Source: a virus (lineage: Duplodnaviria > Caudoviricetes). From it: a DNA stretch of 38,569 nt. The translations under genes were made by a program, and so were the position numbers. The stretch is from positions 1 to 38,569 of the IMG/VR virus record IMGVR_UViG_3300019872_000007; one strand, written 5' to 3'. The notes below the pieces were generated by a model. That model saw only the letters and a program-made list of their open reading frames with translations, was not told the DNA's origin and ran no database searches. How positions within the stretch are numbered: position 1 is the stretch's first letter; each line of letters starts with the position of its first letter. Shown here in pieces: positions 1 through 38,569 of the stretch.

Positions 1-157
1 ACATGCGTCAGGGGTGCTGGCAAAAACCAAGCCACTGAAGAATATCCTGTTGCAAATCCCACTGCCCCTCTAGCTCCAGCAAGAGCACCAAATTTCATTG
101 AGTCAACTACAATATGTCGAATGGGCGTATCTCTCAAGAATTGGGTATCTTCATATT
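1..157. repeat. Terminal direct repeat / circular overlap, copy 1
   Basis: 1-157 equals 38413-38569 except G123 vs A38535. Confidence 0.97.
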
Positions 158-257
158 GCTCAATCTGCTCATCAAGATCTAATCGTTCGAGTATAGGATG
201 CAAGGGAAGGGTTATCCCTGGGATATTTTGGCAAAACATGTAAGGCGCGATCATCAT
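1..257 (-). CDS. 5' part of junction-spanning membrane protein (continues to 38169; about 166 aa)
   Basis: ATGs at 257/254 after AAGAGGA; open frame MMIAPYMFCQNIPGITLPLHPILERLDLDEQIEQYEDTQFLRDTP, in frame with the 38169..38549 ORF. Confidence 0.75.
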   Translation of the reverse strand, partial: MMIAPYMFCQNIPGITLPLHPILERLDLDEQIEQYEDTQFLRDTPIRHIVVDSMKFGALAGARGAVGFATGYSSVAWFLPAPLTH

Positions 258-271
258 TTCCTCTTTTTTCG

Positions 272-487
272 TTAGTCATTCTCAAATTCTTCTATCGGAA
301 TCCACTTCAAAACAAACACGGTTTCTTCTGTTTCACATCTTTTCCATCCCTCAAATGGTGAAAAAAATACATCTACATATCCCATCCAACAAGTTGTGTC
401 TTTATTATCGCCTTTGCAAATATAAGCTAGGCATCTAGTTGACTTATTTAGAGGGGGTAAAGTCTCTTTTGAGTTTCTCCAGTTCAT
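272..487 (-). CDS. DUF551-like phage protein
   Basis: N-terminal MNWRNSKETLPP and C-terminal WIPI, typical of DUF551; AAGGA RBS. Confidence 0.6.
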   Translation of the reverse strand: MNWRNSKETLPPLNKSTRCLAYICKGDNKDTTCWMGYVDVFFSPFEGWKRCETEETVFVLKWIPIEEFEND

Positions 488-510
488 TTTTAATCCTTTC
501 TTTTTATGTA

Positions 511-538
511 ACGTCTGATAATTAAGGTTATGTTGATA
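511..538 (+). other. XerC/XerD dif-like recombination site
   Basis: ACGTCTGATAA-TTAAGG-TTATGTTGATA: 11-6-11 layout with ATAA and TTATGTT flanking the spacer, as in E. coli dif GGTGCGCATAA-TGTATA-TTATGTTAAAT; intergenic. Confidence 0.65.
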
Positions 539-640
539 AAGATCTTATTTTAGTAGCTTTATAATGGGAAATAATGTAGAATTTTTTGTGACTTTTTCAT
601 ATGTTCAGTCAATTTTACAAATTTCATAGTTTTTGCATAA

Positions 641-823
641 TTATTCATTTCCATTCACCATTTCTTCAAAGGTTATCTGATAATTTATAGGGTGAAATGT
701 CCCAAACCATAAGCAATTCTTACATAAATCTATAGGTTCGATCTCTCCGGTTTCCATGTTCTCAATGCCCATACGATGAGAAGCCTCGCATTTTTTGCAC
801 GGAGGATATATTATTTTACTCAT
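641..823 (-). CDS. Small zinc-finger protein (start revised to ATG 823)
   Basis: MSKIIYPPCKKC...CKNC; revised start avoids overlap with the upstream ORF. Confidence 0.55.
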   Translation of the reverse strand: MSKIIYPPCKKCEASHRMGIENMETGEIEPIDLCKNCLWFGTFHPINYQITFEEMVNGNE

Positions 824-842
824 ATGATCCCTATCCTTGAAA

Positions 843-1034
843 TCAATTGCTTTTATTATAAATGCATACTTCACATTGACATATATTACCTGGAAAATGT
901 CTATCGCAATACGAAGGCATCTCTTCATTAACTGTATCAAAGAATTTTGCTTTTTCTTCACACATACTGCATTTTTTTCCTAATTGAGCAAGCTGCACTT
1001 TAGATATAAGAATATACCCATTATCATCGGTCAT
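843..1034 (-). CDS. Small Cys-rich hypothetical protein
   Basis: CSMC...YCDRH...CQCEVC; tiles the operon. Confidence 0.55.
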   Translation of the reverse strand: MTDDNGYILISKVQLAQLGKKCSMCEEKAKFFDTVNEEMPSYCDRHFPGNICQCEVCIYNKSN

Positions 1035-1275
1035 CGTAGAACTTCTCAAATGCAATTTTCACATCGTTCTCTGTCTTATCAAATAAGTTTCTACATGCTT
1101 TAGATTGCATAAAACATTGAATTCTTACGTCTATACCATCCCTACAGGTGATGATCACCTTCGGCGAATTTTCATCCCAGCATTTACAATATTCGCCATT
1201 TGCCTCAGCTTTCAACTTAGTCACATATGACCAATAGGTTGACTGGCCATAGCCAAAACCATCATATGGGATCAT
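1024..1275 (-). CDS. Hypothetical protein
   Basis: 83 aa; ATGA overlap with the upstream gene. Confidence 0.6.
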   Translation of the reverse strand: MIPYDGFGYGQSTYWSYVTKLKAEANGEYCKCWDENSPKVIITCRDGIDVRIQCFMQSKACRNLFDKTENDVKIAFEKFYDDR

Positions 1276-2388: not shown

Positions 2389-2577
2389 ATGAAAAAACTT
2401 CTTCCTCTAATGTTTCTGCTTTCTTCCTGTAGCTGCTCTCTGCAAGTATGGGAAATTCAATATGAAAGCGCTCTGCAAATGGCCGAAAAAGAAGTGACCG
2501 CACCTGAAAATTATCAGCCCAAGACCGACGGCATGAATGGACCAGATAGAGCTCTTTATCGATCAGCCGTCATCTAG
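2389..2577 (+). CDS. Small lipoprotein (start revised to ATG 2389)
   Basis: MKKLLPLMFLLSS-C: signal peptide with lipobox. Confidence 0.7.
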   Translation: MKKLLPLMFLLSSCSCSLQVWEIQYESALQMAEKEVTAPENYQPKTDGMNGPDRALYRSAVI

Positions 2578-2621: not shown

Positions 2622-3293
2622 TTATTTTAGGCAATTAATATTCAAAGTCGCCACTGTTACAGGGAATATGATTCCGACTGTATTTGGAGTCATATCCACG
2701 CTATTTGAGCTAGCATTCCGCAACTTCAGTACATCACCCGCAGCAATAGCAATCATAACTTCTCCCGTGACCTGCAAAGTGTCATCAGAACCCGCTTGAG
2801 TAAACCCTGAGATCGTTGAACCAGGAACTAGAACATTATTTAGCCATAGACCAAATGAAAAGCTTGGAATTGGAAAAGGAATAGGCTGGCTTACTTTAGC
2901 TTCTGCCCCAAAGTTAATTCTATAAACGCCGGCTTTCAGAAATTTCACGGATCCATCAACAGCCATTTTAGTCAAATCAAAATCAGCTGCTATAATAGCA
3001 TTGGTAGATTGGAATAAAACAGCATCTGCACCTGTACCAAAAGCCGCTATTACTTGTGGTGGTTGTGCCCAGATATTAGCGTAGGATACGCAGCCAACTC
3101 CCCCGTTGCCCGTGCCAGTGCAATCACAATCTTTACCTGGAGCACCTTGCATACCAGCTATTCCTTGTATGCCTTGCAACCCCATAATACCTTGTACGCC
3201 TTGTGGACCCTGTAACCCGGGAACGCCTTGCGGGCCTTGTTCACAACAGCAAGCACAATCTTTTTTGTACATATCATCTTTACACATAAACAC
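2622..3293 (-). CDS. Collagen-repeat protein with BclA-C/C1q-like head
   Basis: About 12 Gly-X-Y triplets flanked by Cys clusters, followed by beta-sandwich motifs [27 protein letters not shown]. Confidence 0.8.
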
Positions 3294-3335
3294 CTCAAAA
3301 TTATGAGTTTCGGACGGAACTTTTCGCCATCGATA

Positions 3336-3476
3336 TCATTTTTTCCTAGGAATTTTGGCGCCTGATTTTCTGGCTACATTAAGAGCGATAGCGATAGCTT
3401 GCTTAGGTTTTTTCCCTGCCATTTCCTCTTCTTTAATGTTATGGCCGATGTTCTTTTTCCCTTTCAATAAAGGCAT
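3336..3476 (-). CDS. Small basic phage protein, 46 aa, absent from the ORF track
   Basis: MPLLKGKKNIGHNIKEEEMAGKKPKQAIAIALNVARKSGAKIPRKK; KQAIAIAL motif typical of small phage proteins. Confidence 0.75.
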   Translation of the reverse strand: MPLLKGKKNIGHNIKEEEMAGKKPKQAIAIALNVARKSGAKIPRKK

Positions 3477-3482
3477 GTCCAC

Positions 3483-3575
3483 CTACTTTTTGGTATTCTC
3501 TTTCTTGATTTCTTCGTCTTCAGCTTTCTTAATCTTCTTTGCTTTTCGATGTTCTTTCCCCTTACCCTTAGACAT
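3483..3575 (-). CDS. Lys-rich 30-aa peptide
   Basis: MSKGKGKEHRKAKKIKKAEDEEIKKENTKK; GGAG RBS; fills the operon gap. Confidence 0.5.
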   Translation of the reverse strand: MSKGKGKEHRKAKKIKKAEDEEIKKENTKK

Positions 3576-4251
3576 TTTTCTCCGGTGGTTTTTCGGTTAA
3601 ACATTCCATAAATGCACCTGCAACTCCTGCATGGTCTAATCGGATGCTAGGATCTACCCATATTCTGAATCCTGCCTGTCTAGCTCTACGACAAAAAACA
3701 TAATCTTCACCCCAAAATTCTCCTTCCCAAACTTCAGTATCAAATAAACAATGACCTTCAGTATGTTTCAGAGACTCTTCTTTAGGGATATAGTGTAAAT
3801 TAGGGAAGAATTCAATCATTTTTTCCAGCAGATTTCTAGTCAAAAGCATAAATCCCGCTGGGATATATTGCATCTCAAGAAGTCCTTTAGGCGAGACATC
3901 CATACGCTTATCTTCTCCGTACACTCCACGAAAAAGAAAACAACGATCTGGTCCCCTTGCGGGATATAGTGCCGCAACAAAATCCTCATCCATATTGATC
4001 ATTCTTTGCACATCTATAGGATTCCATGCAATATCTGAGTCAATGCATAACATATGCGTGCAATCAGATTCTAGAAAGGCCTTAATCAAGTCATTACGCT
4101 CACGTACAAGCAATGATCCAGAAGTATGTATCCTCATAATGGTTTCAATAGCATGGGAAGCTAAATAAAGCCGTGTATCAGCTAGTGAACAGGCATAGGA
4201 AACGTTTACTTTTCCGTCAAAAGCGGGTGTGGCGATAAATAATTTTGTCAT
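3568..4251 (-). CDS. GT-A fold glycosyltransferase-like protein
   Basis: LFIATP, RN, LCIDSD (DxD), GFMLL, GEDYVFC, IWVDP..L.H motifs. Confidence 0.8.
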   Translation of the reverse strand: MTKLFIATPAFDGKVNVSYACSLADTRLYLASHAIETIMRIHTSGSLLVRERNDLIKAFLESDCTHMLCIDSDIAWNPIDVQRMINMDEDFVAALYPARGPDRCFLFRGVYGEDKRMDVSPKGLLEMQYIPAGFMLLTRNLLEKMIEFFPNLHYIPKEESLKHTEGHCLFDTEVWEGEFWGEDYVFCRRARQAGFRIWVDPSIRLDHAGVAGAFMECLTEKPPEKNV

Positions 4252-6176
4252 AGAGCCCTTATATATAATCCTCTTTTATAATTATTCAGCCATTCTGTAG
4301 TAAGTTGTCCATTTATCGCGGCATCAGTGGGGACCTGAAATTGTGTCGCAGGATTATAAGCATATGTTGAATTTGAAGTTTCAAGAGTACTTGCAGCGGA
4401 ATTTGTAGCTATAAATACCGAGCCCCCTGCAGCGCTTACATTTGCAGAAGCAATATTTCCAGGGTTTTGAGTCCATGTTATAGCATCTGTGGATGAAAGC
4501 ATCGTTGTAGTACTTGCGACGCCTGCTATATAAGATGAACCAGAAAAAGCCAATCCGCTTACAGTTGTTGTAACTGTGCTGGCCCTAGATGTCCAGGATT
4601 CTCCATCGGTTGAGGTAGCTATAACACCACCAGCACCAGATATAACAAAATTAGAACTATATATTGCGGATGATAAACTTGATGAAGTAAATAATCCTGT
4701 ATTATTTGTCCATGTTGTGCCATCTGTGGAAGTATATATTGAATTAAATCCGCCTGCATAAAACAGAGAATTATAAAATACTGAATATAACTGATTTCCT
4801 GTTGGGCTTGTCCTACTTGTCCATGTGATTGCATCCGTTGAGGATTGAATTGCACCTCCCGCTCCGACTGCAACATATGCTCCGTTTCCAAATGCTATTC
4901 CGTAAATTGAGGATGTGGTTGCGCTTGTTCTTGATGTCCAGGTTGTTGCATCAGTTGATGTCCCTAAAGCTCCATTCGCTCCAGCATATACATGCAAACT
5001 ATTACCAAATCCTAATGAATAAATAGAGGAAATAGTATTACTAGTTCTAACCGTCCAAGTAATGGCGTCTGTTGAGCTTGCTACAACTCCTCCCGCACCT
5101 GCATATACATAAGCCGTTCCATAGATTAATGAATTAATTACACTCGCTGTATTACTGGTTCGAGCCGTCCAAGTTGTTCCATCAGTTGATGTACCCAAAC
5201 CGCCTCCATTCGTTCCATAAACGTGTACGCCTCCGCTAGAATATGTTAAAGCGTTAACTTGACTAGTCGTATTACTTGTGCGAGCTGTCCAGGTAATTGC
5301 GTCAGTTGAACTCGCTATTAAACCTCCAGTTCCTCCATAAATATAAGCTGTGCCATAAGTAAGGACATTTAATACACTGGTTGTCCCTGATGATCTTCCG
5401 GTCCAAGTTAGGGCATCTGTAGATGTAGAAAGGATCCCATTGCTTGAACAACAAACATATAATGAGTTTCCAAATATAAAGGGCCTATAACCATTTGTGG
5501 ATGCATTTTGCAGCCCAATACTAGGAGTTTTTGTATTCCAAGTTGTGCCATCAGTTGAGGTCACAATTGTTCCAAGACTGCCGACTCCTACATATTTATT
5601 ATTTCCAAACGCTGCTGAAAAAATTGTAGTTGTTGTCGGCGAATTTCTGGCAACCCAAGTTATTGCATCAGTTGATGAAGATAAACCACCATTACCTGTG
5701 ACATATACATAAACTGAACCATATGTTAGCCCATTAATATTACTCGTTGTACCACTTGTCCTACTTGTCCATGTGATTGCATCTGTAGAAGTCGCTAAAG
5801 CGCCTCCTGATCCGGCATAAACATATAAAGAATTGCCAAAAGTTAAAGCAGATATGTTACTTCCTGTCCCACTTGTTCTTGCTGTCCAGGTTATACCATC
5901 AGTACTTGTGGAAAGTCCTCCATTTGCTGTTCCAAAAACATATACACTACCAAAAGTTAAAGAAGAAATACCACTTGCTGTACCACTAGTTCTAGATGTC
6001 CAAATAGAACCGCCAGGATTCAATAAACCTAATCGATTAAATAGCGCCTGATATGTAGCTTGAGAATATGTTGCGCCATCACATAATAGCCATCTGCCAT
6101 CAAGGTATGCCGCTCCATTAGCGTTACTAAAATAGGCCACTTCACCTACTGGACTCCCATCATCGCCAAATGCCAT
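4248..6176 (-). CDS. Tail fibre/receptor-binding protein: tail-collar domain plus Asp-box beta-propeller repeats
   Basis: PVGEV...WLLCDGATYSQATYQALFNRLG collar motif; about 14 repeats of about 39 aa with S-T-D-x-x-T-W. Confidence 0.85.
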   Translation of the reverse strand: MAFGDDGSPVGEVAYFSNANGAAYLDGRWLLCDGATYSQATYQALFNRLGLLNPGGSIWTSRTSGTASGISSLTFGSVYVFGTANGGLSTSTDGITWTARTSGTGSNISALTFGNSLYVYAGSGGALATSTDAITWTSRTSGTTSNINGLTYGSVYVYVTGNGGLSSSTDAITWVARNSPTTTTIFSAAFGNNKYVGVGSLGTIVTSTDGTTWNTKTPSIGLQNASTNGYRPFIFGNSLYVCCSSNGILSTSTDALTWTGRSSGTTSVLNVLTYGTAYIYGGTGGLIASSTDAITWTARTSNTTSQVNALTYSSGGVHVYGTNGGGLGTSTDGTTWTARTSNTASVINSLIYGTAYVYAGAGGVVASSTDAITWTVRTSNTISSIYSLGFGNSLHVYAGANGALGTSTDATTWTSRTSATTSSIYGIAFGNGAYVAVGAGGAIQSSTDAITWTSRTSPTGNQLYSVFYNSLFYAGGFNSIYTSTDGTTWTNNTGLFTSSSLSSAIYSSNFVISGAGGVIATSTDGESWTSRASTVTTTVSGLAFSGSSYIAGVASTTTMLSSTDAITWTQNPGNIASANVSAAGGSVFIATNSAASTLETSNSTYAYNPATQFQVPTDAAINGQLTTEWLNNYKRGLYIRAL

Positions 6177-6182
6177 AATACC

Positions 6183-6560
6183 TCAAGAATAATAGCCTAT
6201 TAATGCAACACGTAACACATAAGTTGTCGCTGTGGCTGGCGTCGTCACTTTAACAGAAATAGCTGTCGAAGGAGCAACGGATGGTATCACAGCGACCAAA
6301 GGCAAATTTATCATTAAATTCGCTGCGCTGACACCTGTCAAGGCTGTAATTGGCAATATATTACTCACTCCCACATCTGTCCCAATCGACAGGGATGCTG
6401 CCACGGCAAACCCGGTCGTTGACTGTAGTTGTATACTTACAAATAGAGGCATAAACCTTTCGCCTGCGTTAGTCGTGATAATCGACGTTGTTGCGGCAGA
6501 AGTTCCATCAATCCCACCCAATTGTATTACTCTGAGCTCTAAAGGTTGGTTGTATGACAT
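6183..6560 (-). CDS. Putative virion structural protein
   Basis: 125 aa, beta-rich, within the fibre cluster. Confidence 0.65.
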   Translation of the reverse strand: MSYNQPLELRVIQLGGIDGTSAATTSIITTNAGERFMPLFVSIQLQSTTGFAVAASLSIGTDVGVSNILPITALTGVSAANLMINLPLVAVIPSVAPSTAISVKVTTPATATTYVLRVALIGYYS

Positions 6561-7190
6561 CTATTGCACGTGTTTCCATGTTTTTCCTTGACCGACTAAA
6601 GAGATTGCCATAAAACTAACTCCATATTTTCTTGAAAGAAAGGCTTTTGTAACACCCAAAGAAAGCATTTTTCTAATTTCAGGGATATCGCTGTCTTTAA
6701 GCTTTGCAAGGGGTCTAGATTCTCCATGACACGATCTTCCTTTTTTTACACTGTCCTCACTATTCTCTTTGATAGACCCAAGCCATAAGTGCTCAGGATT
6801 CGTACAAGTCGGGTTGTCACAAGAATGACAAACTAAAAATCCTTGGGGAATATCTCCCTTATACATTTCATAGGATAATCTATGCGCTTTATAATGTTTA
6901 TTTTTTCCTGCATAAATATAAGCATATCCGTTTTTATCTAATGAATCTTTCCATCTCCAACAGCCTTTCTGCCTAATGACTTTTTCTTCAAATGAAGCTA
7001 TCATTCTTGCTCTTTTTTCTTCATCAGTAGCTGTAGGCCAAAAAAGACGTTTTTCATTTCCTTTTATCCCAAAATCACGATTTGTACATTTTTTTCCACA
7101 AAATCTTGCGTCTGGTTGCGAATCATGCCTTCTCCATTCAAACTCTCTTTCACATGTTTCACAAACTGATTTTCCTAATTTACATGCCAT
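6561..7190 (-). CDS. HNH homing endonuclease (start ATG 7190)
   Basis: CW-W, AHRLSY, VCHSCDNPTCTNPEHL...N motif; N-terminal zinc finger, C-terminal HTH; GGAGG RBS. Confidence 0.92.
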   Translation of the reverse strand: MACKLGKSVCETCEREFEWRRHDSQPDARFCGKKCTNRDFGIKGNEKRLFWPTATDEEKRARMIASFEEKVIRQKGCWRWKDSLDKNGYAYIYAGKNKHYKAHRLSYEMYKGDIPQGFLVCHSCDNPTCTNPEHLWLGSIKENSEDSVKKGRSCHGESRPLAKLKDSDIPEIRKMLSLGVTKAFLSRKYGVSFMAISLVGQGKTWKHVQ

Positions 7191-7241
7191 ATAGCCTCCT
7201 GTCATAGAGGATACATTATCATATACTGTGATTAATCACAA
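7189..7241 (-). promoter_or_regulatory. Promoter plus RBS-sequestering hairpin of the HNH gene
   Basis: TTGTGA-17-TAATGT; hairpin ATGTA.CCTCT/GGAGG.TATAT; palindrome TGTGATTAATCACA at 7227-7240. Confidence 0.5.
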
Positions 7242-7244
7242 AAT

Positions 7245-8333
7245 CTACAAGACGCGCCAGCTACTCCCAGTGTATAGGCAATCCACGCTCCCCCAATTGC
7301 TGCTGATAACATAACTAGCAGCCCCATCGATCGTTCCTGCATTTGGTGTTATAGTGATATTAAATGCTGCCGCAGTGCCGACGTTATCTTTGATACGATA
7401 TGTGGTACCAGTTACTGGGGTGGCTATTAAATTAATGGTTCTAGCCGCTGAAGTGTCCACTAAAATCACATAATCGGTTGTGAGTGTTGTGTAGGGGTAT
7501 GCTCCAGGAACGGTTGTTTTTACCACACGACCAGAGACAGTATTAATAACCCCTGCTATATACGTCTGCAACTGTTGGCCTGTGCCAGAGCCTTGCGTGC
7601 CTAGGCGCATTACATTCGATTCTCCAGTAACACCTATATTCCCTATGATAATATTACTCGCTTCTGCTGCCGTATATTGGCTGCCTACCTCCCACCCAAT
7701 TCCAATATTGTCGCTTCCTGTTTTTAGAGCGCCTAAAGAAGCATTTCCTAATGCCGTATTTCTCCCTATTGCCGTCGTTAATTGAGCTAAACTTGAGGCG
7801 CCTATTGCGGTATTTGATACAGAAACTGTTGCTACTTGTAGGGCAGCATATCCGAACGCGACGTTTATTCCTCCAGTTGTTAACGCATTTCCAGCGCCAT
7901 TACCTACAGCCGTATTTGCGTTTGCAGTAGTAGTTGCGTTTAAAACTAGCTGACCAAGTCCAGTGTTTAAAAGTCCTGTTGTTCGATTGGGTAATGAGCT
8001 TCCCAAAACAAGATTTGAAAGACTGAAATTCAATACTCTTGAGCCTGCAACATTAGCAAATTGCGGCGTGGCATTTGAAGTAACTACATTTAAAGCGCCC
8101 GCATTTGCGACAGCTGTTATATTTGGCGAAGAAAACCCGAACGTTATTGAGCTATCCGGAGAAGTTAATGTACCAACATTGATATGTGTACCTCCAGCAT
8201 TTACAGCAGTTGTACCGATCAACATTTGGCCGTTTGTCAATATCTGACCTGTAGGCGTTGCCCCACCGCTAAAATCTACGTTTTTGCTATAGACCAACTC
8301 TATATCATTGCCATCATGTGCGAATCCTGACAT
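7245..8333 (-). CDS. Tail fibre with YadA-head-like beta-roll repeats
   Basis: About 14-aa NTAxG repeats; C-terminal YRIKD...TIDG...W domain common in fibres. Confidence 0.75.
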   Translation of the reverse strand: MSGFAHDGNDIELVYSKNVDFSGGATPTGQILTNGQMLIGTTAVNAGGTHINVGTLTSPDSSITFGFSSPNITAVANAGALNVVTSNATPQFANVAGSRVLNFSLSNLVLGSSLPNRTTGLLNTGLGQLVLNATTTANANTAVGNGAGNALTTGGINVAFGYAALQVATVSVSNTAIGASSLAQLTTAIGRNTALGNASLGALKTGSDNIGIGWEVGSQYTAAEASNIIIGNIGVTGESNVMRLGTQGSGTGQQLQTYIAGVINTVSGRVVKTTVPGAYPYTTLTTDYVILVDTSAARTINLIATPVTGTTYRIKDNVGTAAAFNITITPNAGTIDGAASYVISSNWGSVDCLYTGSSWRVL

Positions 8334-8334
8334 A

Positions 8335-8889
8335 TCAAGCCTGTGCCTCTGTTGCGGTTACATAGTCAATAATGGCAGTCCAATTTATCGTAAAAGCTGC
8401 CACCCCAGTCACCTGAATTAAGACATTTGTCCCTGAAATTGTAAATGTAGCTGACCATGAAGATAAAGCGGCATCGTTATTTCGAGTCACCTCCACATCC
8501 TGGATCACTGTGAGCGATCCGGCAACATTTCTTACAGCTCCAATCAATTCAGCCCCTATAGCGACGCCTGAAGCTTTTGCATAACCTGCAATATTTGCTC
8601 TAATATTCACTACAGAATTGCTAGTCGGCACAGGAACCACAGAGGTAAAAGTCGAGGAACCTGCATCTACTGTTTGCGCCGTTCCTGAAAGAAAAGTGTC
8701 TGTGAGAGTAATCAAAAGTGTATTGCTAGATCCAGGCGCTGAAGTGATAATGCCTTGTGTGCCTCCCCCAGGCGTGATAACATTTAATATGTTCCCTGCC
8801 GGTGTAGCAGTTCCATTATCTGTTATAAAAGATGTGGGAACGGATGGAGGCAATCCACCAGCTGTAACAGCTTGAAAAAACTGACTCAT
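8335..8889 (-). CDS. Putative tail/fibre protein
   Basis: 184 aa, T/G/S-rich, tightly coupled to its neighbours. Confidence 0.7.
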   Translation of the reverse strand: MSQFFQAVTAGGLPPSVPTSFITDNGTATPAGNILNVITPGGGTQGIITSAPGSSNTLLITLTDTFLSGTAQTVDAGSSTFTSVVPVPTSNSVVNIRANIAGYAKASGVAIGAELIGAVRNVAGSLTVIQDVEVTRNNDAALSSWSATFTISGTNVLIQVTGVAAFTINWTAIIDYVTATEAQA

Positions 8890-9230: not shown

Positions 9231-9231
9231 T

Positions 9232-9471: not shown

Positions 9472-9484
9472 TTTGAATCCTCAT

Positions 9485-9521
9485 TATGGGTTTCCACACT
9501 TTTACATGGTGGAAACCCATA
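9485..9521. repeat. Perfect 13-bp inverted repeat
   Basis: TATGGGTTTCCAC-N11-GTGGAAACCCATA, intergenic. Confidence 0.85.
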
Positions 9522-28544: not shown

Positions 28545-29831
28545 TTAGAAATATCCCCCACCCATTTGAGGATTCATATATCCATAACCATCGTCATCAT
28601 AAACTTTACGTCGCAACTGTTCAATTGTGAGTTGTGAATCAGGGTTGCCAAAGTCAGCCGACAATAAAAATGGCGTGCAAGCATATCTAAGGGAATCTAC
28701 CGAATGATCGTCTTTCTTAATGGGCTTATCTTCTCCCCTATCTTGAGCCTTCGGACACCATGCATAGCTTTGCAACTGCTCAATTAAATTCTTACAGCTC
28801 TTATGTATGACAATATTCTTACCAGATATGAATTTGCTCATTGTTTTGATGCCAAGGAGCACATCATTATTGGCGTCATTAACTGGAAGATCTTCATTGC
28901 GCAAGGCTATCTTAAATGAAGCCGCTGCTGGGTCTACATAAATGCAAGTGACATTTTTATGTGCAACGAAGCGTTTTATCTCTGTTACTAGTTGTGCATC
29001 GGTCTTAGGGATGCCTGTCTTGGAGGAATCAAAATAATATTCTTCTTCAACTCTCACTTGTGGCCATTGTTTTGGGGAGACAGCTAATAGCACGGCGGAA
29101 GTCGGGTTGGTGGTACCATAGTCAATACCACAAAGATAGTAGCTGGGTGATGGGAAAGGATTAACAAATTGATTATCATGATCAAAGTCAGGGAAGATTG
29201 CGCCTGTCGCTTGGCACCATTCCCCTAGAATGAATCGTTTATACCACATCCCCGAAAAGGAAGATTTTATGCTCTGCTTGTATTTCTCATCCAGTACCGG
29301 ATTATCATCTAGATTAAAATCCCAATGAATGAGATCAAGATCTCCAGCCCGATCAATATATTGCTTCTTTAGAAAATGCGATGGTCCTTCAGGGTTGGCG
29401 GTAGCAAATAGCTGAGCACCAGGAACACTAAGCCGAGTCTCTAGCATCTTCCAAAAAGCTTCAGGTATACAAGTGGCTTCGTCTACGTAGGCATAAGCTA
29501 AAGTAGAGCCCTGAATAGTAGTAACCGCAGATACATCCGGGGCACCAACGAAATAGACGTCGCGACCATATAGCGTTACTTTATTACACATAGGTGAAGG
29601 CGCCGGGTGGCCCAACATACGATAAATAGTAGTAATGACATTTCTTTGTATTGATCCTCGGTTAACGCCAATGATCATGGCATCGCCTGGGACACCATGC
29701 TTTAAACGATCAAGGAATTTACGGATGCTTGAAAAAGTTTTTCCAGATCGTACAGCGCCAACCCAGATATTGAAACGATGAGTTGATTCAAGATAAGATT
29801 GATTTTGCTTATCACTAGTTACAAAGGACAT
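28545..29831 (-). CDS. terL: Terminase large subunit, PBSX-like (start ATG 29831)
   Basis: Walker A GAVRSGKT, Walker B YVDE, TANP, GIDYGTTNP, VDPAA, DDHSVDSLRY. Confidence 0.95.
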   Translation of the reverse strand: MSFVTSDKQNQSYLESTHRFNIWVGAVRSGKTFSSIRKFLDRLKHGVPGDAMIIGVNRGSIQRNVITTIYRMLGHPAPSPMCNKVTLYGRDVYFVGAPDVSAVTTIQGSTLAYAYVDEATCIPEAFWKMLETRLSVPGAQLFATANPEGPSHFLKKQYIDRAGDLDLIHWDFNLDDNPVLDEKYKQSIKSSFSGMWYKRFILGEWCQATGAIFPDFDHDNQFVNPFPSPSYYLCGIDYGTTNPTSAVLLAVSPKQWPQVRVEEEYYFDSSKTGIPKTDAQLVTEIKRFVAHKNVTCIYVDPAAASFKIALRNEDLPVNDANNDVLLGIKTMSKFISGKNIVIHKSCKNLIEQLQSYAWCPKAQDRGEDKPIKKDDHSVDSLRYACTPFLLSADFGNPDSQLTIEQLRRKVYDDDGYGYMNPQMGGGYF

Positions 29832-30273
29832 CAGCCTCTTTTTTAAGCTTGGCTTTAACAAGCATAAGCTCGTTCTCTAGCTCTTTAATTTGCTCATCTT
29901 TAACATTTATTTCATCTTTACTCAAAGCTTTTCTAGATTCCCTTTCAATTTGAGCGTCTGCATCAGAATCTTCCCTTTTCCTTAGATCTTTAAAGTATAC
30001 TCTTTGCCATCTTTGTTTAAGTGATGGTTCAATTGGAGAATCCTTTTTTAGATACTTAAATCCTACTAATTTAAGTGCTTTTTCATAATAGGGGAAAAAC
30101 TCTGGAGCTACTTGCATAGTATCCCATTGTTTGTCAGTATAACTTTTGTGTATAGAATACCATTGAGATAGATGAATAGGATCATTTTCAATGATCCATT
30201 GTAGCATTTCCTCCCCAAGTTCAATCATTTCATCGGGAGAAAGAGAAACTGTTCTGGGACGTCCACCTGCCAT
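29815..30273 (-). CDS. Terminase small subunit (putative)
   Basis: MAGGRP start, helical, immediately upstream of and overlapping terL. Confidence 0.7.
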   Translation of the reverse strand: MAGGRPRTVSLSPDEMIELGEEMLQWIIENDPIHLSQWYSIHKSYTDKQWDTMQVAPEFFPYYEKALKLVGFKYLKKDSPIEPSLKQRWQRVYFKDLRKREDSDADAQIERESRKALSKDEINVKDEQIKELENELMLVKAKLKKEADVLCN

Positions 30274-30617
30274 TAGAATGGGCACTCCTCAAAAAAACTA
30301 GCCTGTTGATAATTCGGACTACTAATCGGTTCTTGCATCGGCAAGATCTTACTTGGCGATTTACTCTCCCAAGATCTGGCCTCTAAAAAAGACATTATAT
30401 CTTTTGCGAGAAAATTGCTATCCCATTCGAGAGAGTGCCTAAATTTTTTCTCCCCGTTGATAGAAACACTAGTGGACATGGGGGACCAGAAAAGGCCGCC
30501 ATCTTTTCTATTCTTTCGAACGTAAGCGAATCTAAATTTGGAATCGACCGAGAGGTAACAAATTTCTTTGGTGTAGGGATCGTCGGGAAAATATTCGTGA
30601 GAAATAAATTCAATCAT
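30273..30617 (-). CDS. SpoVG-like/ssDNA-binding protein with an SSB-type tail
   Basis: KDGGLFWSPMS motif; disordered linker; acidic EECPF C-terminus. Confidence 0.55.
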   Translation of the reverse strand: MIEFISHEYFPDDPYTKEICYLSVDSKFRFAYVRKNRKDGGLFWSPMSTSVSINGEKKFRHSLEWDSNFLAKDIMSFLEARSWESKSPSKILPMQEPISSPNYQQASFFEECPF

Positions 30618-31414: not shown

Positions 31415-32056
31415 TCATTTATCTCGAATTTTGTTCAATTTCTGAGCATATTCATTGGCAAACGTAATAAGTTCAAGGCTAGCATGTTCAGCCATAAAGT
31501 TTTTTTCATTCTCAGGACAAGACTCAAATTGGGCGAGAGCGTTTTTTAAGACACACAGATGCACATTCAGCAGCTCAAGTTCTGAAGGCGAGAATATTTT
31601 AGCTATTTTTTTAGTATTTTCAGTCATAAGTTTTTTTATAGGGGAGACGTCAATAATCGTGCAAGGATTTTCAGAATATTTTTGAAAAGCATGTAATTCG
31701 ACAATCTGAGCATCATCACGCCAAAGAATACCATTGCAAAGGTCGAGCACAAGTTTAATCAGGTTATCGATATCGGGCTTATGTGATGGCAATTCAAAGT
31801 GCCACTTCTTTGCGTTTTTAAGGGCCGCCGAGCCCGTCTCAGCCACTGGCATGAGGAAAGATAGGGCAACCCTCAACGGAAGGCTAAAATAGCCCTCAAA
31901 ATCATCCGGGCTATCTTGCTTAACCAAAAAGGACAATTCAGCCTTTCTTTCATCGCAAAGCTGCTTTTGCGGATCGTAAGCCACAGCATGCTTGCCACGA
32001 ACGCAGAATTTAGGCCTAGCTTTAGCTATGGGATTTCCAGGTATGACAATTCGCAT
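31415..32056 (-). CDS. rusA: RusA-family Holliday junction resolvase with C-terminal extension
   Basis: IPGNPIAKARP, KPDIDNLIKLVLD, WRDDAQIV. Confidence 0.9.
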   Translation of the reverse strand: MRIVIPGNPIAKARPKFCVRGKHAVAYDPQKQLCDERKAELSFLVKQDSPDDFEGYFSLPLRVALSFLMPVAETGSAALKNAKKWHFELPSHKPDIDNLIKLVLDLCNGILWRDDAQIVELHAFQKYSENPCTIIDVSPIKKLMTENTKKIAKIFSPSELELLNVHLCVLKNALAQFESCPENEKNFMAEHASLELITFANEYAQKLNKIRDK

Positions 32057-32231
32057 TTTTTTTGAATCCAACATCATAAAGTTTACTTTTTTCAAGACTT
32101 ACTAATCGTTTATGAATAGTCGAGACACTCAATCCTAATTTTTTAGCTGTTTTTCTTACACTTTGAAGTTCTTCATAAGTAGAAATCACTATTTCATCCG
32201 GAATTTTTTTAATCCCTCTTCCATAATTCAT
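32022..32231 (-). CDS. HTH DNA-binding protein
   Basis: SVRKTAKKLGLSVSTIHKRL. Confidence 0.7.
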   Translation of the reverse strand: MNYGRGIKKIPDEIVISTYEELQSVRKTAKKLGLSVSTIHKRLVSLEKSKLYDVGFKKNANCHTWKSHS

Positions 32232-34687: not shown

Positions 34688-34915
34688 TCAGCCAACTTTC
34701 TGTTTGCTGAAACCTTCAGGCACTTTCGTTTCTTCAAAAACCGTTCCCTCTTTTACCCAACCTTCTGTTGCAAATTCAATCAGCTTTAAGGTCTTCTTAG
34801 AGGGCTGTCTTTTTCTATTCAAGATTGATGAAATGTAACCTACATGAAATCCCGCTCTTTCGGCAAATTCTTTTACAGACATTTCTTTATAAAATAGATA
34901 TTCCTTAATATTCAT
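34688..34915 (-). CDS. Cro-like XRE-family HTH regulator
   Basis: MSVKEFAERAG...YISSILNRKRQPS...IEFATEGWV; AAGGAG RBS. Confidence 0.88.
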   Translation of the reverse strand: MNIKEYLFYKEMSVKEFAERAGFHVGYISSILNRKRQPSKKTLKLIEFATEGWVKEGTVFEETKVPEGFSKQKVG

Positions 34916-35643: not shown

Positions 35644-36288
35644 ATGAATCAGTCACCACAGCTAGACCAATTATTTACAGCCTTGGCGAAAGCTCAGGGC
35701 GAAATGACTGGAGCCGCCAAAGATTGTGCGAATCCGTTTTTTAAATCTCGCTATGCAGATCTCTCTAGCATCTGGACCGCATGCCGGGAGCCTTTAAGCA
35801 AATATGGCCTTACAGTCCTTCAAGGCCCGTATGAACAAGATGGACGAATGTACATAGAAACAATGCTAGGACATTCATCGGGGCAGTTTGTAAGATCTTA
35901 TCTACCCATAAATGTTAAAATCGAGGGAAAAGGTGCAAATGAACTGCAAGCTTTAGGGGCGGCAATCACTTACTTGAGAAGATTTTGCTTATCAGCATTA
36001 GTTGGTGTGGCTCCTGATGACGATAATGATGGCAATGAATCGAACTATAAAGCTCGGCCTAAACAAGAACCTGTCTCTGTTCCTCAAGTTACTCCCAGTC
36101 AAGTTGCAGAGATTCGCTCTATGCTTGCGTCTTGTGATAATGCCTACATTGCGAAAATCATGGACTGGCTTGGAACGTATAAGATCACTAATCTTGAGAC
36201 AATGCCTGTCACTTTCTACTCTACAATTAAGACTCGGGTTCAGGCTCATCTTGATGTGCCACAAACCGCAATAGTGGGGGATGCGTGA
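35644..36288 (+). CDS. erf: ERF-family single-strand annealing protein
   Basis: NPFFKSRYADL, HSSGQ, QALGAAITYLRRF.L, DDDNDGN. Confidence 0.95.
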   Translation: MNQSPQLDQLFTALAKAQGEMTGAAKDCANPFFKSRYADLSSIWTACREPLSKYGLTVLQGPYEQDGRMYIETMLGHSSGQFVRSYLPINVKIEGKGANELQALGAAITYLRRFCLSALVGVAPDDDNDGNESNYKARPKQEPVSVPQVTPSQVAEIRSMLASCDNAYIAKIMDWLGTYKITNLETMPVTFYSTIKTRVQAHLDVPQTAIVGDA

Positions 36289-36425
36289 ATCTAATCCAAG
36301 ATATCTATTGCGAATGGGTGGAGGACTTAGGTCTTTCACCAGTTGAGATTTTGATGGTGTTGCTTGAGAAAGAAAGACAGATTAACGAAGATTTAAGGAA
36401 GAGGCTTGCGAAGTATGAAAATTGA
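36285..36425 (+). CDS. 46-aa coiled-coil protein (GTG start), absent from the ORF track
   Basis: GTGA overlap with erf; GGGGG RBS; MNLIQDIYCEW...KYEN. Confidence 0.55.
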   Translation: MNLIQDIYCEWVEDLGLSPVEILMVLLEKERQINEDLRKRLAKYEN

Positions 36426-36609
36426 AATAAAAATACTATCCCATAGGGGAATTATAATTGATGACTCAGAATACCCACCAACAGCACATATCGATAAAAA
36501 ATATATCAGAGAAAAAATTGAAAAAGTTTTGAGAAATTGGCATTTATGTGTAATGGTATCGCCCGATGATTTTAATCAAGTACTTGATGAATGTGTGGTG
36601 GATTTATGA
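36415..36609 (+). CDS. Hypothetical protein
   Basis: 64 aa; ATGA overlap with the exonuclease gene. Confidence 0.55.
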   Translation: MKIEIKILSHRGIIIDDSEYPPTAHIDKKYIREKIEKVLRNWHLCVMVSPDDFNQVLDECVVDL

Positions 36610-37466
36610 AAATCATTGAATTAACTCAGAATACTCCCGAATGGCTTGAATTTCGAAAGAATAAATTAGGTGCCAGCGATGCTCCCATCATAATGGGTGA
36701 TAGTCCGTGGTGTTCACCGTCTCAATTATGGGAAAGAAAAATAGGTATAACACCCGATCAAACAGAAAACTTTGCAATGCGTGAAGGCAAAGAATTAGAG
36801 CCAGTAGCTAGAGAAAGCTTCAATAAGATTATGGGTAAGGTATATACACCTTACGTTGTACAACATGAAACCTTCGAATGGATGATAGCTTCATTAGACG
36901 GACTATCATTATGCGAAAAATGTGCTGTTGAAATAAAGTGTCCTGGCCGAGAAGCTCACCTTTCGGCTCTTGCTGGGAAAGTCCCCGCATATTATATCCC
37001 TCAATTGCAACATCAGCTTGCAGTTACTGGGCTAGATATGATATACTACTACAGTTATGACGGGAAGCAAAACGCTTGCATCGAAGTGCATCGTGATGAA
37101 AAAATGATTGATCATATGATCAAAGAGGAATTAAAATTCTATAATTGCCTAATAAAAGCAATTCCTCCAGATCTGACCGATCAAGATTATAAAGTAAGGT
37201 TTGATGGAAAATGGGAAAATGCAACAGCTTATTGGCTGAGATCGCAGGCAAATTTAAAAGATGCCGAATTCCACGAAAAGAGGGCAAGAGAACAAATAAT
37301 AGCTCTTTCAGAATCTCGGAACTCGAAAGGTTGCGGGGTGAAAGTCCAAAAGATTATGCGTCAAGGGTGTGTCAACTACTCCGCAATTCCTGCATTAGAG
37401 GGGATCGACTTGGATCAATATAGGAAGCCGACAAGTGAATCGTGGAGGATTACGTTAGATGGATAA
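36606..37466 (+). CDS. YqaJ/lambda-exonuclease family recombination nuclease
   Basis: QNTPEWLEFR, GASD, G.ELE, ASLDG, EIKCP, YYIPQLQHQL. Confidence 0.95.
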   Translation: MKIIELTQNTPEWLEFRKNKLGASDAPIIMGDSPWCSPSQLWERKIGITPDQTENFAMREGKELEPVARESFNKIMGKVYTPYVVQHETFEWMIASLDGLSLCEKCAVEIKCPGREAHLSALAGKVPAYYIPQLQHQLAVTGLDMIYYYSYDGKQNACIEVHRDEKMIDHMIKEELKFYNCLIKAIPPDLTDQDYKVRFDGKWENATAYWLRSQANLKDAEFHEKRAREQIIALSESRNSKGCGVKVQKIMRQGCVNYSAIPALEGIDLDQYRKPTSESWRITLDG

Positions 37467-37472
37467 AAAATG

Positions 37473-37664
37473 TTAGTCAACTGTCAGTTTGCTACATCCT
37501 TTGCAACATATTTCCTTAGTCAAAATTGAATCTGGGTTATTACAAAATGTACATGTCTGTTCCACATCATATTTTTTTTCTAATCTTCTAAGTTCTTTTC
37601 TACATATTTCACATGGGCATTTTGAAAGCAATCCTATAAGTTTTAAAGCATGTGCCGGTATCAT
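37473..37664 (-). CDS. Cys-rich small protein
   Basis: CPCEIC, CTFC, CCKGC. Confidence 0.5.
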   Translation of the reverse strand: MIPAHALKLIGLLSKCPCEICRKELRRLEKKYDVEQTCTFCNNPDSILTKEICCKGCSKLTVD

Positions 37665-37697
37665 AGTCTAAGCCTAGCTTGCAATTCCTTCATCTTG

Positions 37698-37889
37698 TCA
37701 AAGATTGCCGGATGGCATCCATACCACCCGGCTATCTCCGTTACGCATTTCATAGAAAAGAATATGATCGTTTTTTATGCATTCTGTTGAATCCATGCAC
37801 ATTTGATATGTTGAAGCGGGAGACGTATATAGTAAACATAAATCTCTTTTTTGACAACCATTTCCGCAACACTTTGTGATATCAGACAT
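37698..37889 (-). CDS. DUF7723-like Cys-rich phage protein (MxDITKC.G.GC...C..Y)
   Basis: Recurrent small-phage-protein N-terminal pattern (family number from memory); TGATG coupling. Confidence 0.6.
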   Translation of the reverse strand: MSDITKCCGNGCQKRDLCLLYTSPASTYQMCMDSTECIKNDHILFYEMRNGDSRVVWMPSGNL

Positions 37890-38161
37890 CAGAATATTCG
37901 TTCTGGCTTACGTGTGGTAGAAACTATCAGCATTGAAATGCTTAGTATTATATTCAGCGTTACTACAGGCATTAGAATGGTGGGGGAAATCGCCAAAACG
38001 TTAAGTAAATATATACTACCCGACCAGCTTGACGCAAGAGCTTTCAAGGCCATAGATGCGATATTTACAATAAGTGCGCCGGCTGTCAGCCATTCACAAA
38101 CGGGCAGGATTCGCGTAATATCTTTACCCAAGTCAGTCGCTAAAGAGTTTATTGCTATCAT
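37889..38161 (-). CDS. Two-TM hairpin membrane protein (start ATG 38161)
   Basis: GAGGA RBS; long bilobed hydrophobic region with basic tail RKPERIF. Confidence 0.65.
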   Translation of the reverse strand: MIAINSLATDLGKDITRILPVCEWLTAGALIVNIASMALKALASSWSGSIYLLNVLAISPTILMPVVTLNIILSISMLIVSTTRKPERIF

Positions 38162-38168
38162 ATGTTCC

Positions 38169-38569
38169 TCAAGTAAGTTGTTTATGCTGGTTTTTAAAAT
38201 ATGAATACGCAATCCTTAACTGATTCTGGCTAGGATTATGAACATTCAAGACAGATGTGACAACGATAGATAAAATTGAAGGCAGATTTTTTCCAATTTC
38301 ACTAATTTTACCCTCGATTCTTTCTACGCGTCTTTGAGTCAATAAGTCATATTTACAGCTATTGCTCATAAAGAATCCTGTTGAAAAAACAAACCCAGTT
38401 ATAGCCCCAATTACATGCGTCAGGGGTGCTGGCAAAAACCAAGCCACTGAAGAATATCCTGTTGCAAATCCCACTGCCCCTCTAGCTCCAGCAAGAGCAC
38501 CAAATTTCATTGAGTCAACTACAATATGTCGAATAGGCGTATCTCTCAAGAATTGGGTATCTTCATATT
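38169..38569 (-). CDS. 3' part of junction-spanning membrane protein
   Basis: Gly/Ala-rich bilobed hydrophobic region followed by a short coiled coil. Confidence 0.7.
   Translation of the reverse strand, partial: YEDTQFLRDTPIRHIVVDSMKFGALAGARGAVGFATGYSSVAWFLPAPLTHVIGAITGFVFSTGFFMSNSCKYDLLTQRRVERIEGKISEIGKNLPSILSIVVTSVLNVHNPSQNQLRIAYSYFKNQHKQLT
38413..38569. repeat. Terminal direct repeat / circular overlap, copy 2
   Basis: Matches 1-157 with one mismatch; an ORF reads through the junction. Confidence 0.97.

What the first reader, a model, noticed from the sequence alone, without database searches (positions are those of the whole stretch)
1..38569. Complete genome with no recognisable lysis module; possible phage of an intracellular (Chlamydiae-like) host
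Seen: no lysozyme, amidase, peptidase or transglycosylase motif in any ORF, although the genome is closed. It carries a lipoprotein, sigma70-type promoters and bilobed membrane proteins. Known: Chlamydiae have reduced or transient peptidoglycan in several lineages, and their isolated phages are ssDNA microviruses. My unverified recollection is that the FHGRLCAIEE small protein and FCCH-domain virion proteins occur in environmental chlamydial assemblies. Inference: a tailed phage of a protist-dwelling bacterium with a non-canonical exit route.
Basis: inference. Interest (0 to 1): 0.72.

Follow-up and report, generated by a model that had tools for sequence, protein, structure and literature searches.

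The report
Lysin-free tailed phage of environmental chlamydiae
This is a complete 38.4-kb short-tailed phage genome with no detectable cell-wall-cutting enzyme, from a large uncultured phage family that likely infects chlamydiae living inside protists and would then escape without digesting a wall, which matters because the chlamydial phages isolated so far are small single-stranded ones.

Summary
Largely supported. The window is a closed 38,412-bp P22-like podophage; re-assembled contigs cross the end-start junction. No muralytic enzyme was detected in it, in ORF surveys of 50 near-complete relatives, or in six-frame GH24, SLT, Amidase_2, M15 and patatin searches (0 of 50 each). ORF 24563-25204 has no muralytic fold match (best PDB Z 3.2). 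The only GenBank capsid match (25% identity) does carry a GH19 endolysin.

Host evidence is indirect. Relative G019 (capsid 87%, portal 64%) carries CT583/Pgp6, whose 120 of 120 plasmid matches are Chlamydiae, beside a DnaB whose 6 of 6 organism-named matches are Parachlamydiaceae (72-77%). Distant relatives carry hairpin-plus-U-box cargo. The window itself has no host marker.

Protochlamydia has a full sacculus, so 'no wall' is not the whole answer. The exit route (membrane failure plus host rupture) is inferred. This scan reported the same idea on other DNA (e1-10428789).

The parts
1..157 (.). assembly overlap of a circular / circularly permuted genome (copy at 38413-38569)
28545..29861 (-). 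terminase large subunit
   Evidence: Pfam Terminase_3/6N, phrog_2; 21 of 21 genomes
29815..30285 (-). likely terminase small subunit
   Evidence: position; the protein at this place in relatives hits TerS PHROGs weakly, E 1.7e-4; inferred
26337..28370 (-). P22-like portal protein
   Evidence: PF16510, 228 bits
   Evidence: 21 of 21 genomes; AF2 pLDDT 81.5 (76); best PDB Z 3.2 (84); BFVD hits uncharacterised
23688..24401 (-). likely scaffolding protein (coiled coil before the capsid gene)
   Evidence: position, 21 of 21; inferred
23317..23553 (-). FHGRLC-family single-pass membrane + coiled-coil protein; holin-like architecture; lead candidate for membrane permeabilisation
   Evidence: KD peak 2.58 and AGGAGG upstream; family in 13 of 21 close genomes; function inferred
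23063..23320 (-). orphan small protein with N-terminal transmembrane segment, directly after 23317
   Evidence: KD peak 2.01, no homologue in fetched loci
21959..22942 (-). major capsid protein, N4-gp56 family
   Evidence: TIGR04387 61.6 bits > cut-off 60; 647 relatives
19845..21946 (-). two related conserved virion proteins (341 aa and 137 aa) with an inserted endonuclease gene (20315-20890)
   Evidence: cluster 5, 21 of 21; phrog_2340
19426..19845 (-). conserved unknown c11; small GINS-B/L9-like domain; possibly a gpFI-like head assembly factor
   Evidence: AF2 pLDDT 87.8 (86); Z 5.7 GINS, Z 2.9 gpFI-C, both weak; role inferred from position
14721..19416 (-). short-tail module: FCCH-containing adaptor (18109-19416), nozzle-like 775 aa (15821-18148), Gp53-like fibre (15197-15820), conserved 158-aa protein
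   Evidence: nozzle and adaptor roles inferred (PDB sequence search empty)
11464..14719 (-). likely ejection proteins (222, 428, 199 aa) and a KTSC-domain protein (231 aa); no lytic-transglycosylase domain detected
   Evidence: SLT 0 of 50 relatives
2622..11551 (-). fibre/spike genes (672, 362, 642 aa with repeats), HNH gene, glycosyltransferase-like 227 aa, collagen/BclA-like 223 aa; the late operon ends with no lysis cassette
   Evidence: contrast MW202713.1
32954..34203 (-). lambda O-like initiator (with three 23-nt iteron-like repeats at 33827-33896) and DnaC-like loader
31415..32095 (-). RusA resolvase (partial duplicate at 32385-32684)
34688..34915 (-). Cro/CI-like HTH beside divergent promoter-like sites (34957-35039)
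35644..37466 (+). ERF annealase and YqaJ exonuclease
37889..38569 (-). orphan cargo at the variable site: a two-TM ORF (37889-38212) and the C-terminal part of a Gly-rich hydrophobic ORF that starts at 257 and crosses the junction
   Evidence: no family hit
2392..2577 (+). orphan lipobox-bearing small ORF
   Evidence: sequence; not conserved

Best explanation
This is a complete P22-like short-tailed dsDNA phage with no detectable peptidoglycan-cutting enzyme, from a widespread uncultured family that likely infects environmental Chlamydiae (likely Parachlamydiales) inside protists and likely leaves by making the bacterial membrane fail, with release when the bacterium, its vacuole and the host cell rupture. 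SHOWN: closed genome; P22-like portal, terminase, capsid and fibre genes; lambdoid O/DnaC replication and ERF/YqaJ recombination; no integrase in this genome; no lysin by profile, six-frame or fold search, here or in the relatives surveyed; chlamydial DnaB and CT583 in relative G019; U-box cargo in distant relatives. INFERRED: (1) the window's host is chlamydial like G019's (about 0.75); (2) it replicates from the iteron-bearing O gene using the host's DnaB and packages headfuls from concatemers; (3) small single-pass membrane proteins such as 23317-23553 and 23063-23320 act like holins on an osmotically protected reticulate body with a thin or septal wall, while developmental arrest and the host's own wall-remodelling enzymes complete the rupture (about 0.4); (4) hairpin/U-box cargo is exported by the host bacterium into the eukaryote (about 0.4).
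For: Closure. Lysin absence: window; 261 representative ORFs from 20 close relatives (PHROGs 107); 150 further ORFs from loci; 239 representatives from 30 more genomes with capsid identity 20-87%. Six-frame searches were 0 of 50 each for GH24, SLT, Amidase_2, M15_4 and patatin, with controls ringing in 3, 8, 6, 1 and 8 of 14 genomes. Positive control: MW202713.1, the only one of 50,697 GenBank phage records matching the capsid (25%), has a GH19 (43 bits) and a small ORF right after its tail genes. Host: G019 has capsid 87%, portal 64%, TerL 62% identity to the window and nests inside the family trees. It encodes UPF0137/CT583 (217 bits); 120 of 120 plasmid records matching it are Chlamydiae, where it sits near DnaB/ParA. 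Its DnaB passes NCBIfam PRK06321 (786.8 > 751; general DnaB model 495.9). 6 of 6 organism-named rows among the best 120 are Parachlamydiaceae/Parachlamydia at 72-77%, and the two best non-self clusters hold Parachlamydiaceae-named members. The same DnaB lies on separately assembled 36,323- and 37,007-nt contigs, which argues against a chimera. U-box above Pfam cut-off in G664 (31.3 bits) and G696 (29.2), below it in G675 (20.2); a fourth family member in G685. Rival hosts: capsid found in 1 of 203 Legionellales-order and 1 of 401 Paceibacteria-class genomes, in each case only the binned contig itself. Literature: phage WO lacks the canonical lysis system and has a single-TM coiled-coil holin-like gene (PMC9203015, passages); chlamydial phages exit by altering development and disintegrating the inclusion (PMC5062602, passage).
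Against: The window has no chlamydial marker of its own. CT583 was found only in G019 (1 of 50, 1 of 50; none other in viral contigs). G019 differs in GC (49% vs 40%) and has a long TerL branch, so hosts could differ within the family. The U-box carriers share only 27-34% capsid identity with the window. No integrated copy in a chlamydial chromosome was seen, and the GTDB scan's 7 hits include no Chlamydiae. Protochlamydia amoebophila (Parachlamydiaceae) forms a complete sacculus, whereas C. trachomatis has a ring and Simkania none detected (PMC5814848, passage), so a wall may still need breaching. The FHGRLC family is missing from 8 of 21 close genomes, is often multi-copy, and often lies on the strand opposite the late operon, which is unlike a timed holin. 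Several core proteins (c13, c14 N-terminus, c16, c27, c8, c12) were not folded. ORFs under 95-110 aa without relatives, and 67 long or GTSAN-rich representatives, were left unscanned. The GH108 search had no positive control.
Confidence: 0.6

Rival explanations
1. The host is chlamydial but walled, and the phage breaches the wall by a hidden single-gene route: a small protein that blocks peptidoglycan synthesis or switches on the host's amidases, or a hydrolase of unknown fold.
For: The nearest named DnaB donors are Parachlamydiaceae, a family with a demonstrated sacculus (PMC5814848 passage). Many small orphan ORFs and several unfolded core proteins remain. c10 has 26 invariant residues and a fold without a solved match.
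Against: No unknown core gene was found across the wider clade by profile: c10 11 of 30, c11 16 of 30, c13 20 of 30, c14 4 of 30 (128), though divergence may hide some. c10 and c11 sit among head genes. The likely ejection proteins also lack muralytic domains.
Confidence: 0.2
2. The family spans several wall-poor intracellular phyla, and this member infects another one (Babelota/Dependentiae, Rickettsiales, Holosporales); G019's genes reflect one chlamydial branch or gene flow inside shared amoebae.
For: GC ranges from 31 to 49% among close relatives. Chlamydial genes occur in one genome only. Protists co-host these lineages (PMC12644861 passages).
Against: Capsids are 86-94% and portals 64-79% identical across the 20 close relatives. 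No marker of another phylum appeared in the scans. Legionellales 1 of 203.
Confidence: 0.13
3. An ordinary phage of a free-living walled soil or freshwater bacterium whose endolysin is simply unrecognisable; G019 picked up chlamydial DNA by chance or by mis-assembly.
For: Family contigs are binned with Paceibacterota, Bacteroidetes, Nitrospiraceae, Legionellaceae and an archaeon; one capsid record is labelled Chloroherpetonaceae. Uncultured phages often lack annotated lysins (general knowledge).
Against: The bins are taxonomically incoherent, the contigs are stand-alone and phage-sized, and relatives of those bins lack the capsid. G019's DnaB-CT583 block occupies the replication slot and recurs on separate assemblies. 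No known lysin class was seen in 51 surveyed genomes despite highly variable cargo, while the distant control has one.
Confidence: 0.07

Closest known systems
P22-like podophages (Salmonella phage P22 / Lederbergvirus layout)
   Same: P22-type portal (PF16510); order TerS-TerL-portal-scaffold-capsid-adaptor-nozzle-ejection-fibre; ERF recombination; O-type replication; about 38-40 kb (layout comparison partly recalled).
   Different: N4-gp56-family capsid; no integrase in this genome; no holin-endolysin-spanin cassette; TerL only about 41% to the best isolated phage; no isolate close on the capsid.
Phage WO of Wolbachia (proposed Wovirus, Symbioviridae; PMC9203015, PMC5062602)
   Same: Tailed phage of an obligate intracellular bacterium; canonical endolysin-holin-spanin absent; small single-TM coiled-coil holin-like gene; eukaryote-type cargo.
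   Different: WO has a patatin cassette (0 of 50 here), a baseplate and tail module, a large serine recombinase and an ankyrin-rich module. This family is short-tailed with a P22-like portal, and no replacement lytic enzyme was found.
Chlamydiamicroviruses (ssDNA Microviridae of Chlamydia)
   Same: Likely host phylum; exit by developmental disruption and inclusion rupture (PMC5062602 passage).
   Different: Those are small ssDNA tail-less phages of Chlamydiaceae; this is a 38-kb dsDNA tailed phage likely of environmental lineages. No shared genes were detected.
Chlamydial plasmid core (Pgp1 helicase, Pgp5 ParA, Pgp6/CT583, Pgp7/8 integrase; PMC7846284)
   Same: Relative G019 carries CT583 next to a DnaB and a tyrosine recombinase.
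   Different: G019's DnaB is of the chromosomal type (PRK06321 787 bits, versus 394 for the Simkania plasmid helicase); no ParA detected. The window has none of these genes. The phage-derived genes reported on chlamydial plasmids include a tail-tip L gene, and the window's portal has no plasmid match.
MW202713.1 (uncultured podovirus, GenBank)
   Same: Only GenBank capsid match (25%); similar size and gene order.
   Different: Has a GH19 endolysin, an integrase and a small ORF after the tail genes.

Membership tests
Caudoviricetes, P22-like short-tailed layout | Terminase, P22-type portal, HK97-lineage capsid gene | tested here: met
Caudoviricetes, P22-like short-tailed layout | No tape-measure, tube or sheath genes; ejection-type proteins instead | tested here: inconclusive
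   no such family hit except a weak FCCH-region hit to phrog_584 (E 8.9e-5); morphology not observed
Lederbergvirus (P22 genus) | Close sequence identity to P22 proteins, integrase, holin-endolysin-Rz/Rz1 cassette | tested here: not met
   capsid matches 1 of 50,697 phage records, at 25%; no integrase or lysis hits
Wovirus / phage WO | Patatin-like phospholipase lytic cassette | tested here: not met
   PF01734 0 of 50 including the window; control rang in 8 of 14
Wovirus / phage WO | Large serine recombinase, PAAR/baseplate module, ankyrin-rich eukaryotic association module | tested here: not met
   no such Pfam/PHROG hit in 71 window ORFs
Chlamydiamicrovirus | Small ssDNA genome with microvirus capsid and Rep | tested here: not met
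   38.4-kb genome with terminase and portal
Phage of Chlamydiota | Host-derived, phylum-restricted genes in the family | tested here: met
   G019 CT583 and DnaB; one relative only, not the window
Phage of Chlamydiota | Provirus or CRISPR spacer in a chlamydial genome | not testable with these tools
   no Chlamydiota genome handle was reachable; the single GTDB scan, limited to close capsid matches, gave 7 non-chlamydial bins
Holin (single-TM, class III-like) for 23317-23553 | One N-terminal TM, under 150 aa, coiled-coil charged C-terminus | tested here: met
   criteria from PMC9203015 passage
Holin (single-TM, class III-like) for 23317-23553 | Conserved late-operon position next to a lytic enzyme; timed membrane lesion | tested here: inconclusive
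   late operon in the window but scattered, multi-copy and present in 13 of 21 genomes; activity untested
Muralytic enzyme for 24563-25204 | Lysozyme, amidase, peptidase or transglycosylase fold | tested here: inconclusive
   none listed among 51 rows at Z>=2, best Z 3.2 (84); a missing match does not exclude a fold

The most novel reading that the evidence does not exclude
A widespread, diverse family of tailed dsDNA phages of environmental Chlamydiae that has dispensed with all muralytic enzymes, for entry as well as exit, swaps replication and plasmid-maintenance genes with its hosts, and carries hairpin-U-box effectors aimed at the protist: a three-level phage-symbiont-eukaryote system and a source for the unmatched CRISPR spacers and phage-derived genes of chlamydial genomes.
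Probability: 0.4. Interest if true: 0.85.

Novelty: new variant of a known kind. Interest (0 to 1): 0.68.

Why it matters
The chlamydial phages described in the papers read here are ssDNA microviruses. Chlamydial plasmids and islands carry phage-derived genes, and Protochlamydia has CRISPR spacers with no database match (PMC7846284, PMC5010888, passages), so dsDNA phages were implied but not identified. A common tailed family (capsid found in 276 IMG/VR stretches) would supply them. It gives concrete sequences to match against chlamydial spacers and single-protist genomes, a route of gene flow in a phylum thought to be genetically isolated, and a testable case of tailed-phage release without an endolysin or patatin.

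Tried and rejected
dif/XerD half-site motif (recalled): 29 matches vs 32.9 expected, no signal. Sigma70-like sites at chance level. Conserved spanin pair: lipoproteins in 5 of 21 genomes by a strict rule that missed the window's own candidate; rejected. FHGRLC protein as a chlamydial chromosomal marker: no plasmid match; ESM Atlas top clusters unnamed, mixed Planctomycetota/Verrucomicrobiota, score about 0.9, a lead only; no organism names; only contigs of at most 41.9 kb among the 80 listed, 49 of which hit family gene clusters, including low-specificity fibre clusters. Chlamydial Pgp2 reading of G019's 357-aa ORF: no plasmid match; it resembles the hairpin-U-box ORFs only weakly (pairwise E 4e-6 over the hairpin, 91; not hit by the profile, 128). 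G019 DnaB against plasmids was uninformative. Weak leads below cut-off: Pgp3-C in G022 (21.9 < 25), F-box in L186 (19.6 < 24.3), SSB of G665 best on PRK06293 (88.7 < 156; the chlamydial meaning of that model is recalled; plasmid search uninformative, 131). PDB profile searches of c10, c11, c13, c12 gave nothing significant, and c14 only KTSC (69-73); the nozzle gave nothing. No muralytic fold was listed for c10 or c11. The GH108 search had no ringing control. YqaJ against plasmids and TerL against phages gave generic matches at 42% or less. Sequencing runs: no RNA holder listed; besides the two soil runs that may be the source, only small shares that I did not lay. No tRNA (4). Three Legionellales-order genomes were not scored. 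Literature searches (listings only) showed no description of a tailed dsDNA phage family of Chlamydiae; the library lacks most subscription papers, and older electron-microscopy reports of phages in amoebal chlamydiae (recalled) could not be checked. 'PRK06321' gave 0 papers. Supplements of PMC12644861 (viruses predicted to infect Chlamydiales) and PMC5010888 (spacers) were not read and may bear on the host claim and on novelty.

Full report
1. What the window is. 154 ORFs of at least 50 aa were listed; 71 were translated and scanned. The genome has a terminase (28545-29861), a P22-like portal (26337-28370, 228 bits), an N4-gp56-family capsid (21959-22942, TIGR04387 61.6 > 60), fibre genes with internal repeats, a lambda O-like initiator with three 23-nt repeats inside it, a DnaC-like loader, RusA, ERF, YqaJ and a Cro/CI-like HTH. 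No integrase, tRNA or lysis gene was found. The first and last 157 nt are repeated with one mismatch. Two Logan contigs cross the junction with a single copy: the 13,260-nt record covers window 36000-38569 at 3406-5975 and window 1-7442 at 5819-13260, and the 5,928-nt record does likewise. The unit genome is therefore 38,412 bp, and no lysis cassette can be missing off the ends. These runs may be the source sample.

2. It belongs to a large uncultured family. The capsid has 647 relatives in the protein collection and 276 confirmed stretches in IMG/VR, but only 1 match among 50,697 GenBank phage records, at 25%. I fetched 20 near-complete close relatives (capsid 86-94%, portal 64-79%) and clustered their ORFs with the window's. 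Twelve clusters are in 21 of 21 genomes, and the late gene order is constant. A wider clade was reached with a capsid alignment and the FHGRLC family; 30 more genomes were fetched (capsid 20-87%, no capsid hit in one).

3. Lysin search. Window: none. Close relatives: 101 cluster representatives and 160 singletons of at least 95 aa, no muralytic Pfam; 145 proteins against PHROGs, no lysis-category hit. Loci from capsid and metagenome scans: 150 of 174 novel representatives; the other 24 went to PHROGs and 19 of them to Pfam; none. Wider clade: 239 of 438 representatives scanned, none; 67 long or GTSAN-rich and 134 short singleton representatives were dropped first. Six-frame family searches on sets of 50 genomes: GH24 0 (second set, window not included), SLT 0 (134; window not included), Amidase_2 0 (135), M15_4 0 (136), patatin 0 (143), each with controls ringing; GH108 0 without a control (137). 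The second core unknown, 19426-19845, gave a small GINS-B/L9-like domain (Z 5.7, rmsd 3.2, 65 aligned; gpFI-C Z 2.9). As a control, the distant GenBank match carries a GH19 enzyme after its tail genes, and the same Pfam scan detects it. Absence is thus a family trait at the limit of these methods; a hydrolase of unknown fold or a very small lysis protein is not excluded.

4. Host. The one GTDB scan found 7 close capsid matches, all on stand-alone contigs of 2-38 kb in bins labelled Paceibacterota (2), Bacteroidetes, Nitrososphaeraceae, Legionellaceae/Legionella (2) and Nitrospiraceae. Relatives of two of these bins lack the capsid (1 of 203 and 1 of 401, each the bin itself), so I read them as mis-binned (inference). 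The positive evidence comes from relative G019 (37,049 nt, terminal repeats). In the slot where others have O plus DnaC it has Rep, DnaB (L095:12064-13548) and CT583/UPF0137 (L095:11097-11768), next to a tyrosine recombinase and a 357-aa hydrophobic-hairpin ORF. CT583 matches 120 plasmid records, all Chlamydiae; on the Simkania and Protochlamydia plasmids it follows ParA, and Pgp6 is placed on the ancestral chlamydial plasmid (PMC7846284, passages). The DnaB passes PRK06321. All 6 organism-named rows among its best 120 matches are Parachlamydiaceae or Parachlamydia at 72-77%, one on a 1.12-Mb contig, and the two best non-self clusters contain Parachlamydiaceae-named members. The same protein lies on 36,323- and 37,007-nt contigs from another assembler. 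G019 nests within the portal and TerL trees (many inner forks unresolved, no outgroup). Independent of G019, three distant relatives carry about 335-aa hairpin-plus-U-box ORFs (G664 31.3 bits, G696 29.2, G675 20.2; cut-off 21.4) and a fourth a homologue. U-box domains are eukaryote-type and point to a host living inside a eukaryote (established knowledge plus inference). Limits: CT583 was found in G019 only; the window has no marker of its own; no provirus or spacer link could be tested.

5. Promoter-like sites 46 vs 46.8 by chance; dif-like motif 29 vs 32.9; lipoprotein-like ORF unconserved; two hydrophobic orphan ORFs at the variable site are real but unassigned. The FHGRLC family is large (86 representatives; 548 metagenome and 220 viral stretches). 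The 80 listed metagenome loci are all on contigs of at most 41,865 nt, so here it behaves as a marker of these phages; its presence in chlamydial chromosomes was neither shown nor excluded.

6. How it likely works. Entry: long fibres, and ejection-type proteins without a detected muralytic domain (inferred). Replication: iteron-bearing O protein loading the host DnaB through a DnaC-like loader; G019 instead carries a captured host DnaB; ERF/YqaJ circularise and RusA resolves (established for lambdoid phages, inferred here). Many relatives have a small serine resolvase (13 of 21) and ParB-like proteins, and a few have integrases, so an episomal or temperate state is possible; the window has neither resolvase nor integrase. 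Exit: I commit to membrane failure without wall hydrolysis. The 23317-23553 protein meets the four holin-like criteria used for phage WO (PMC9203015, passages) and sits in the late operon with a second single-TM ORF. Chlamydial microviruses are reported to exit by disrupting development and the inclusion (PMC5062602, passage). Against this: the family is absent from 8 of 21 close genomes and often lies on the opposite strand, and Protochlamydia has a complete sacculus (PMC5814848, passage). I give the host about 0.75 and this exit step about 0.4.

7. Comparison and novelty. It works like phage WO (endosymbiont phage without canonical lysis genes) but fails WO's defining features (no patatin, recombinase or baseplate). 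It shares a likely host phylum with chlamydiamicroviruses but no genes. It has a P22-like layout without being a P22-genus member. Papers seen as passages: PMC7846284, PMC5010888, PMC12644861 (unclassified viruses predicted to infect Chlamydiales; tailed ones there linked to free-living bacteria), PMC5814848, PMC9203015, PMC5062602. Ten searches were seen as listings; none showed a described tailed dsDNA family of Chlamydiae, within an open-access library. This scan's note e1-10428789 reached the same idea on another genome. It is unreviewed and is not counted as support; its Babelota and integrated-relative claims were not verified here. Verdict: new variant of a known kind, interest 0.68.

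Noticed in passing
L095:8359-14696 (G019): Block of tyrosine recombinase, hydrophobic-hairpin ORF, CT583/Pgp6, chromosomal-type chlamydial DnaB and Rep inside a complete phage genome: a phage carrying chlamydial plasmid-maintenance-type genes.
   Followed up: yes
L392:3204-4205, L418:10357-11370, L133:5723-6745, L407:5493-6338: Recurrent family of about 335-aa Gly-rich hairpin plus U-box proteins in distant relatives; effector-like cargo.
   Followed up: partly
L186:4933-5463; L101:2941-3420: Weak F-box-like hit and weak Pgp3 C-terminal hit, both below Pfam cut-off.
   Followed up: partly
window 33827-33896: Three 23-nt direct repeats inside the O-like gene; likely origin iterons.
   Followed up: no
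window 31937-32062 and 32547-32672: 126-nt duplication (83%) giving a partial second RusA N-terminus.
   Followed up: no
window 11464-12159: KTSC nucleic-acid-binding domain in a core late gene (20 of 21 close genomes) directly after the likely ejection proteins.
   Followed up: partly
window 25798-26327: Two small His/Lys-rich conserved ORFs between portal and c10 (16 and 11 of 21 genomes); unknown role.
   Followed up: no
L111:18131-18718 and relatives: Small serine resolvase in 13 of 21 close genomes and ParB-like proteins in 16 of 21, suggesting plasmid-like maintenance; both absent from the window.
   Followed up: no
L123:16228-17406; L178:531-1505; L394:4786-5412; L388:15440-16198: RNA-repair cargo (RtcB in 3 of 21 genomes, RNA ligases, RlaP) in several relatives.
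   Followed up: no
L402:11053-11472; L388:9094-9696; L418:16394-17164; L428:15438-15833: Host-like RNA polymerase alpha-CTD, sigma70 region 4 and GroES domains in relatives; possible transcription or chaperone modulators.
   Followed up: partly
G032 (L115/L116): Capsid and following gene appear at both ends of the 40,543-nt record; probably a long assembly overlap.
   Followed up: no
window 3568-4251 and 4248-6176: The 642-aa repeat fibre and the glycosyltransferase-like gene are shared as a pair with only one close relative (G028); a swapped receptor-binding module.
   Followed up: no
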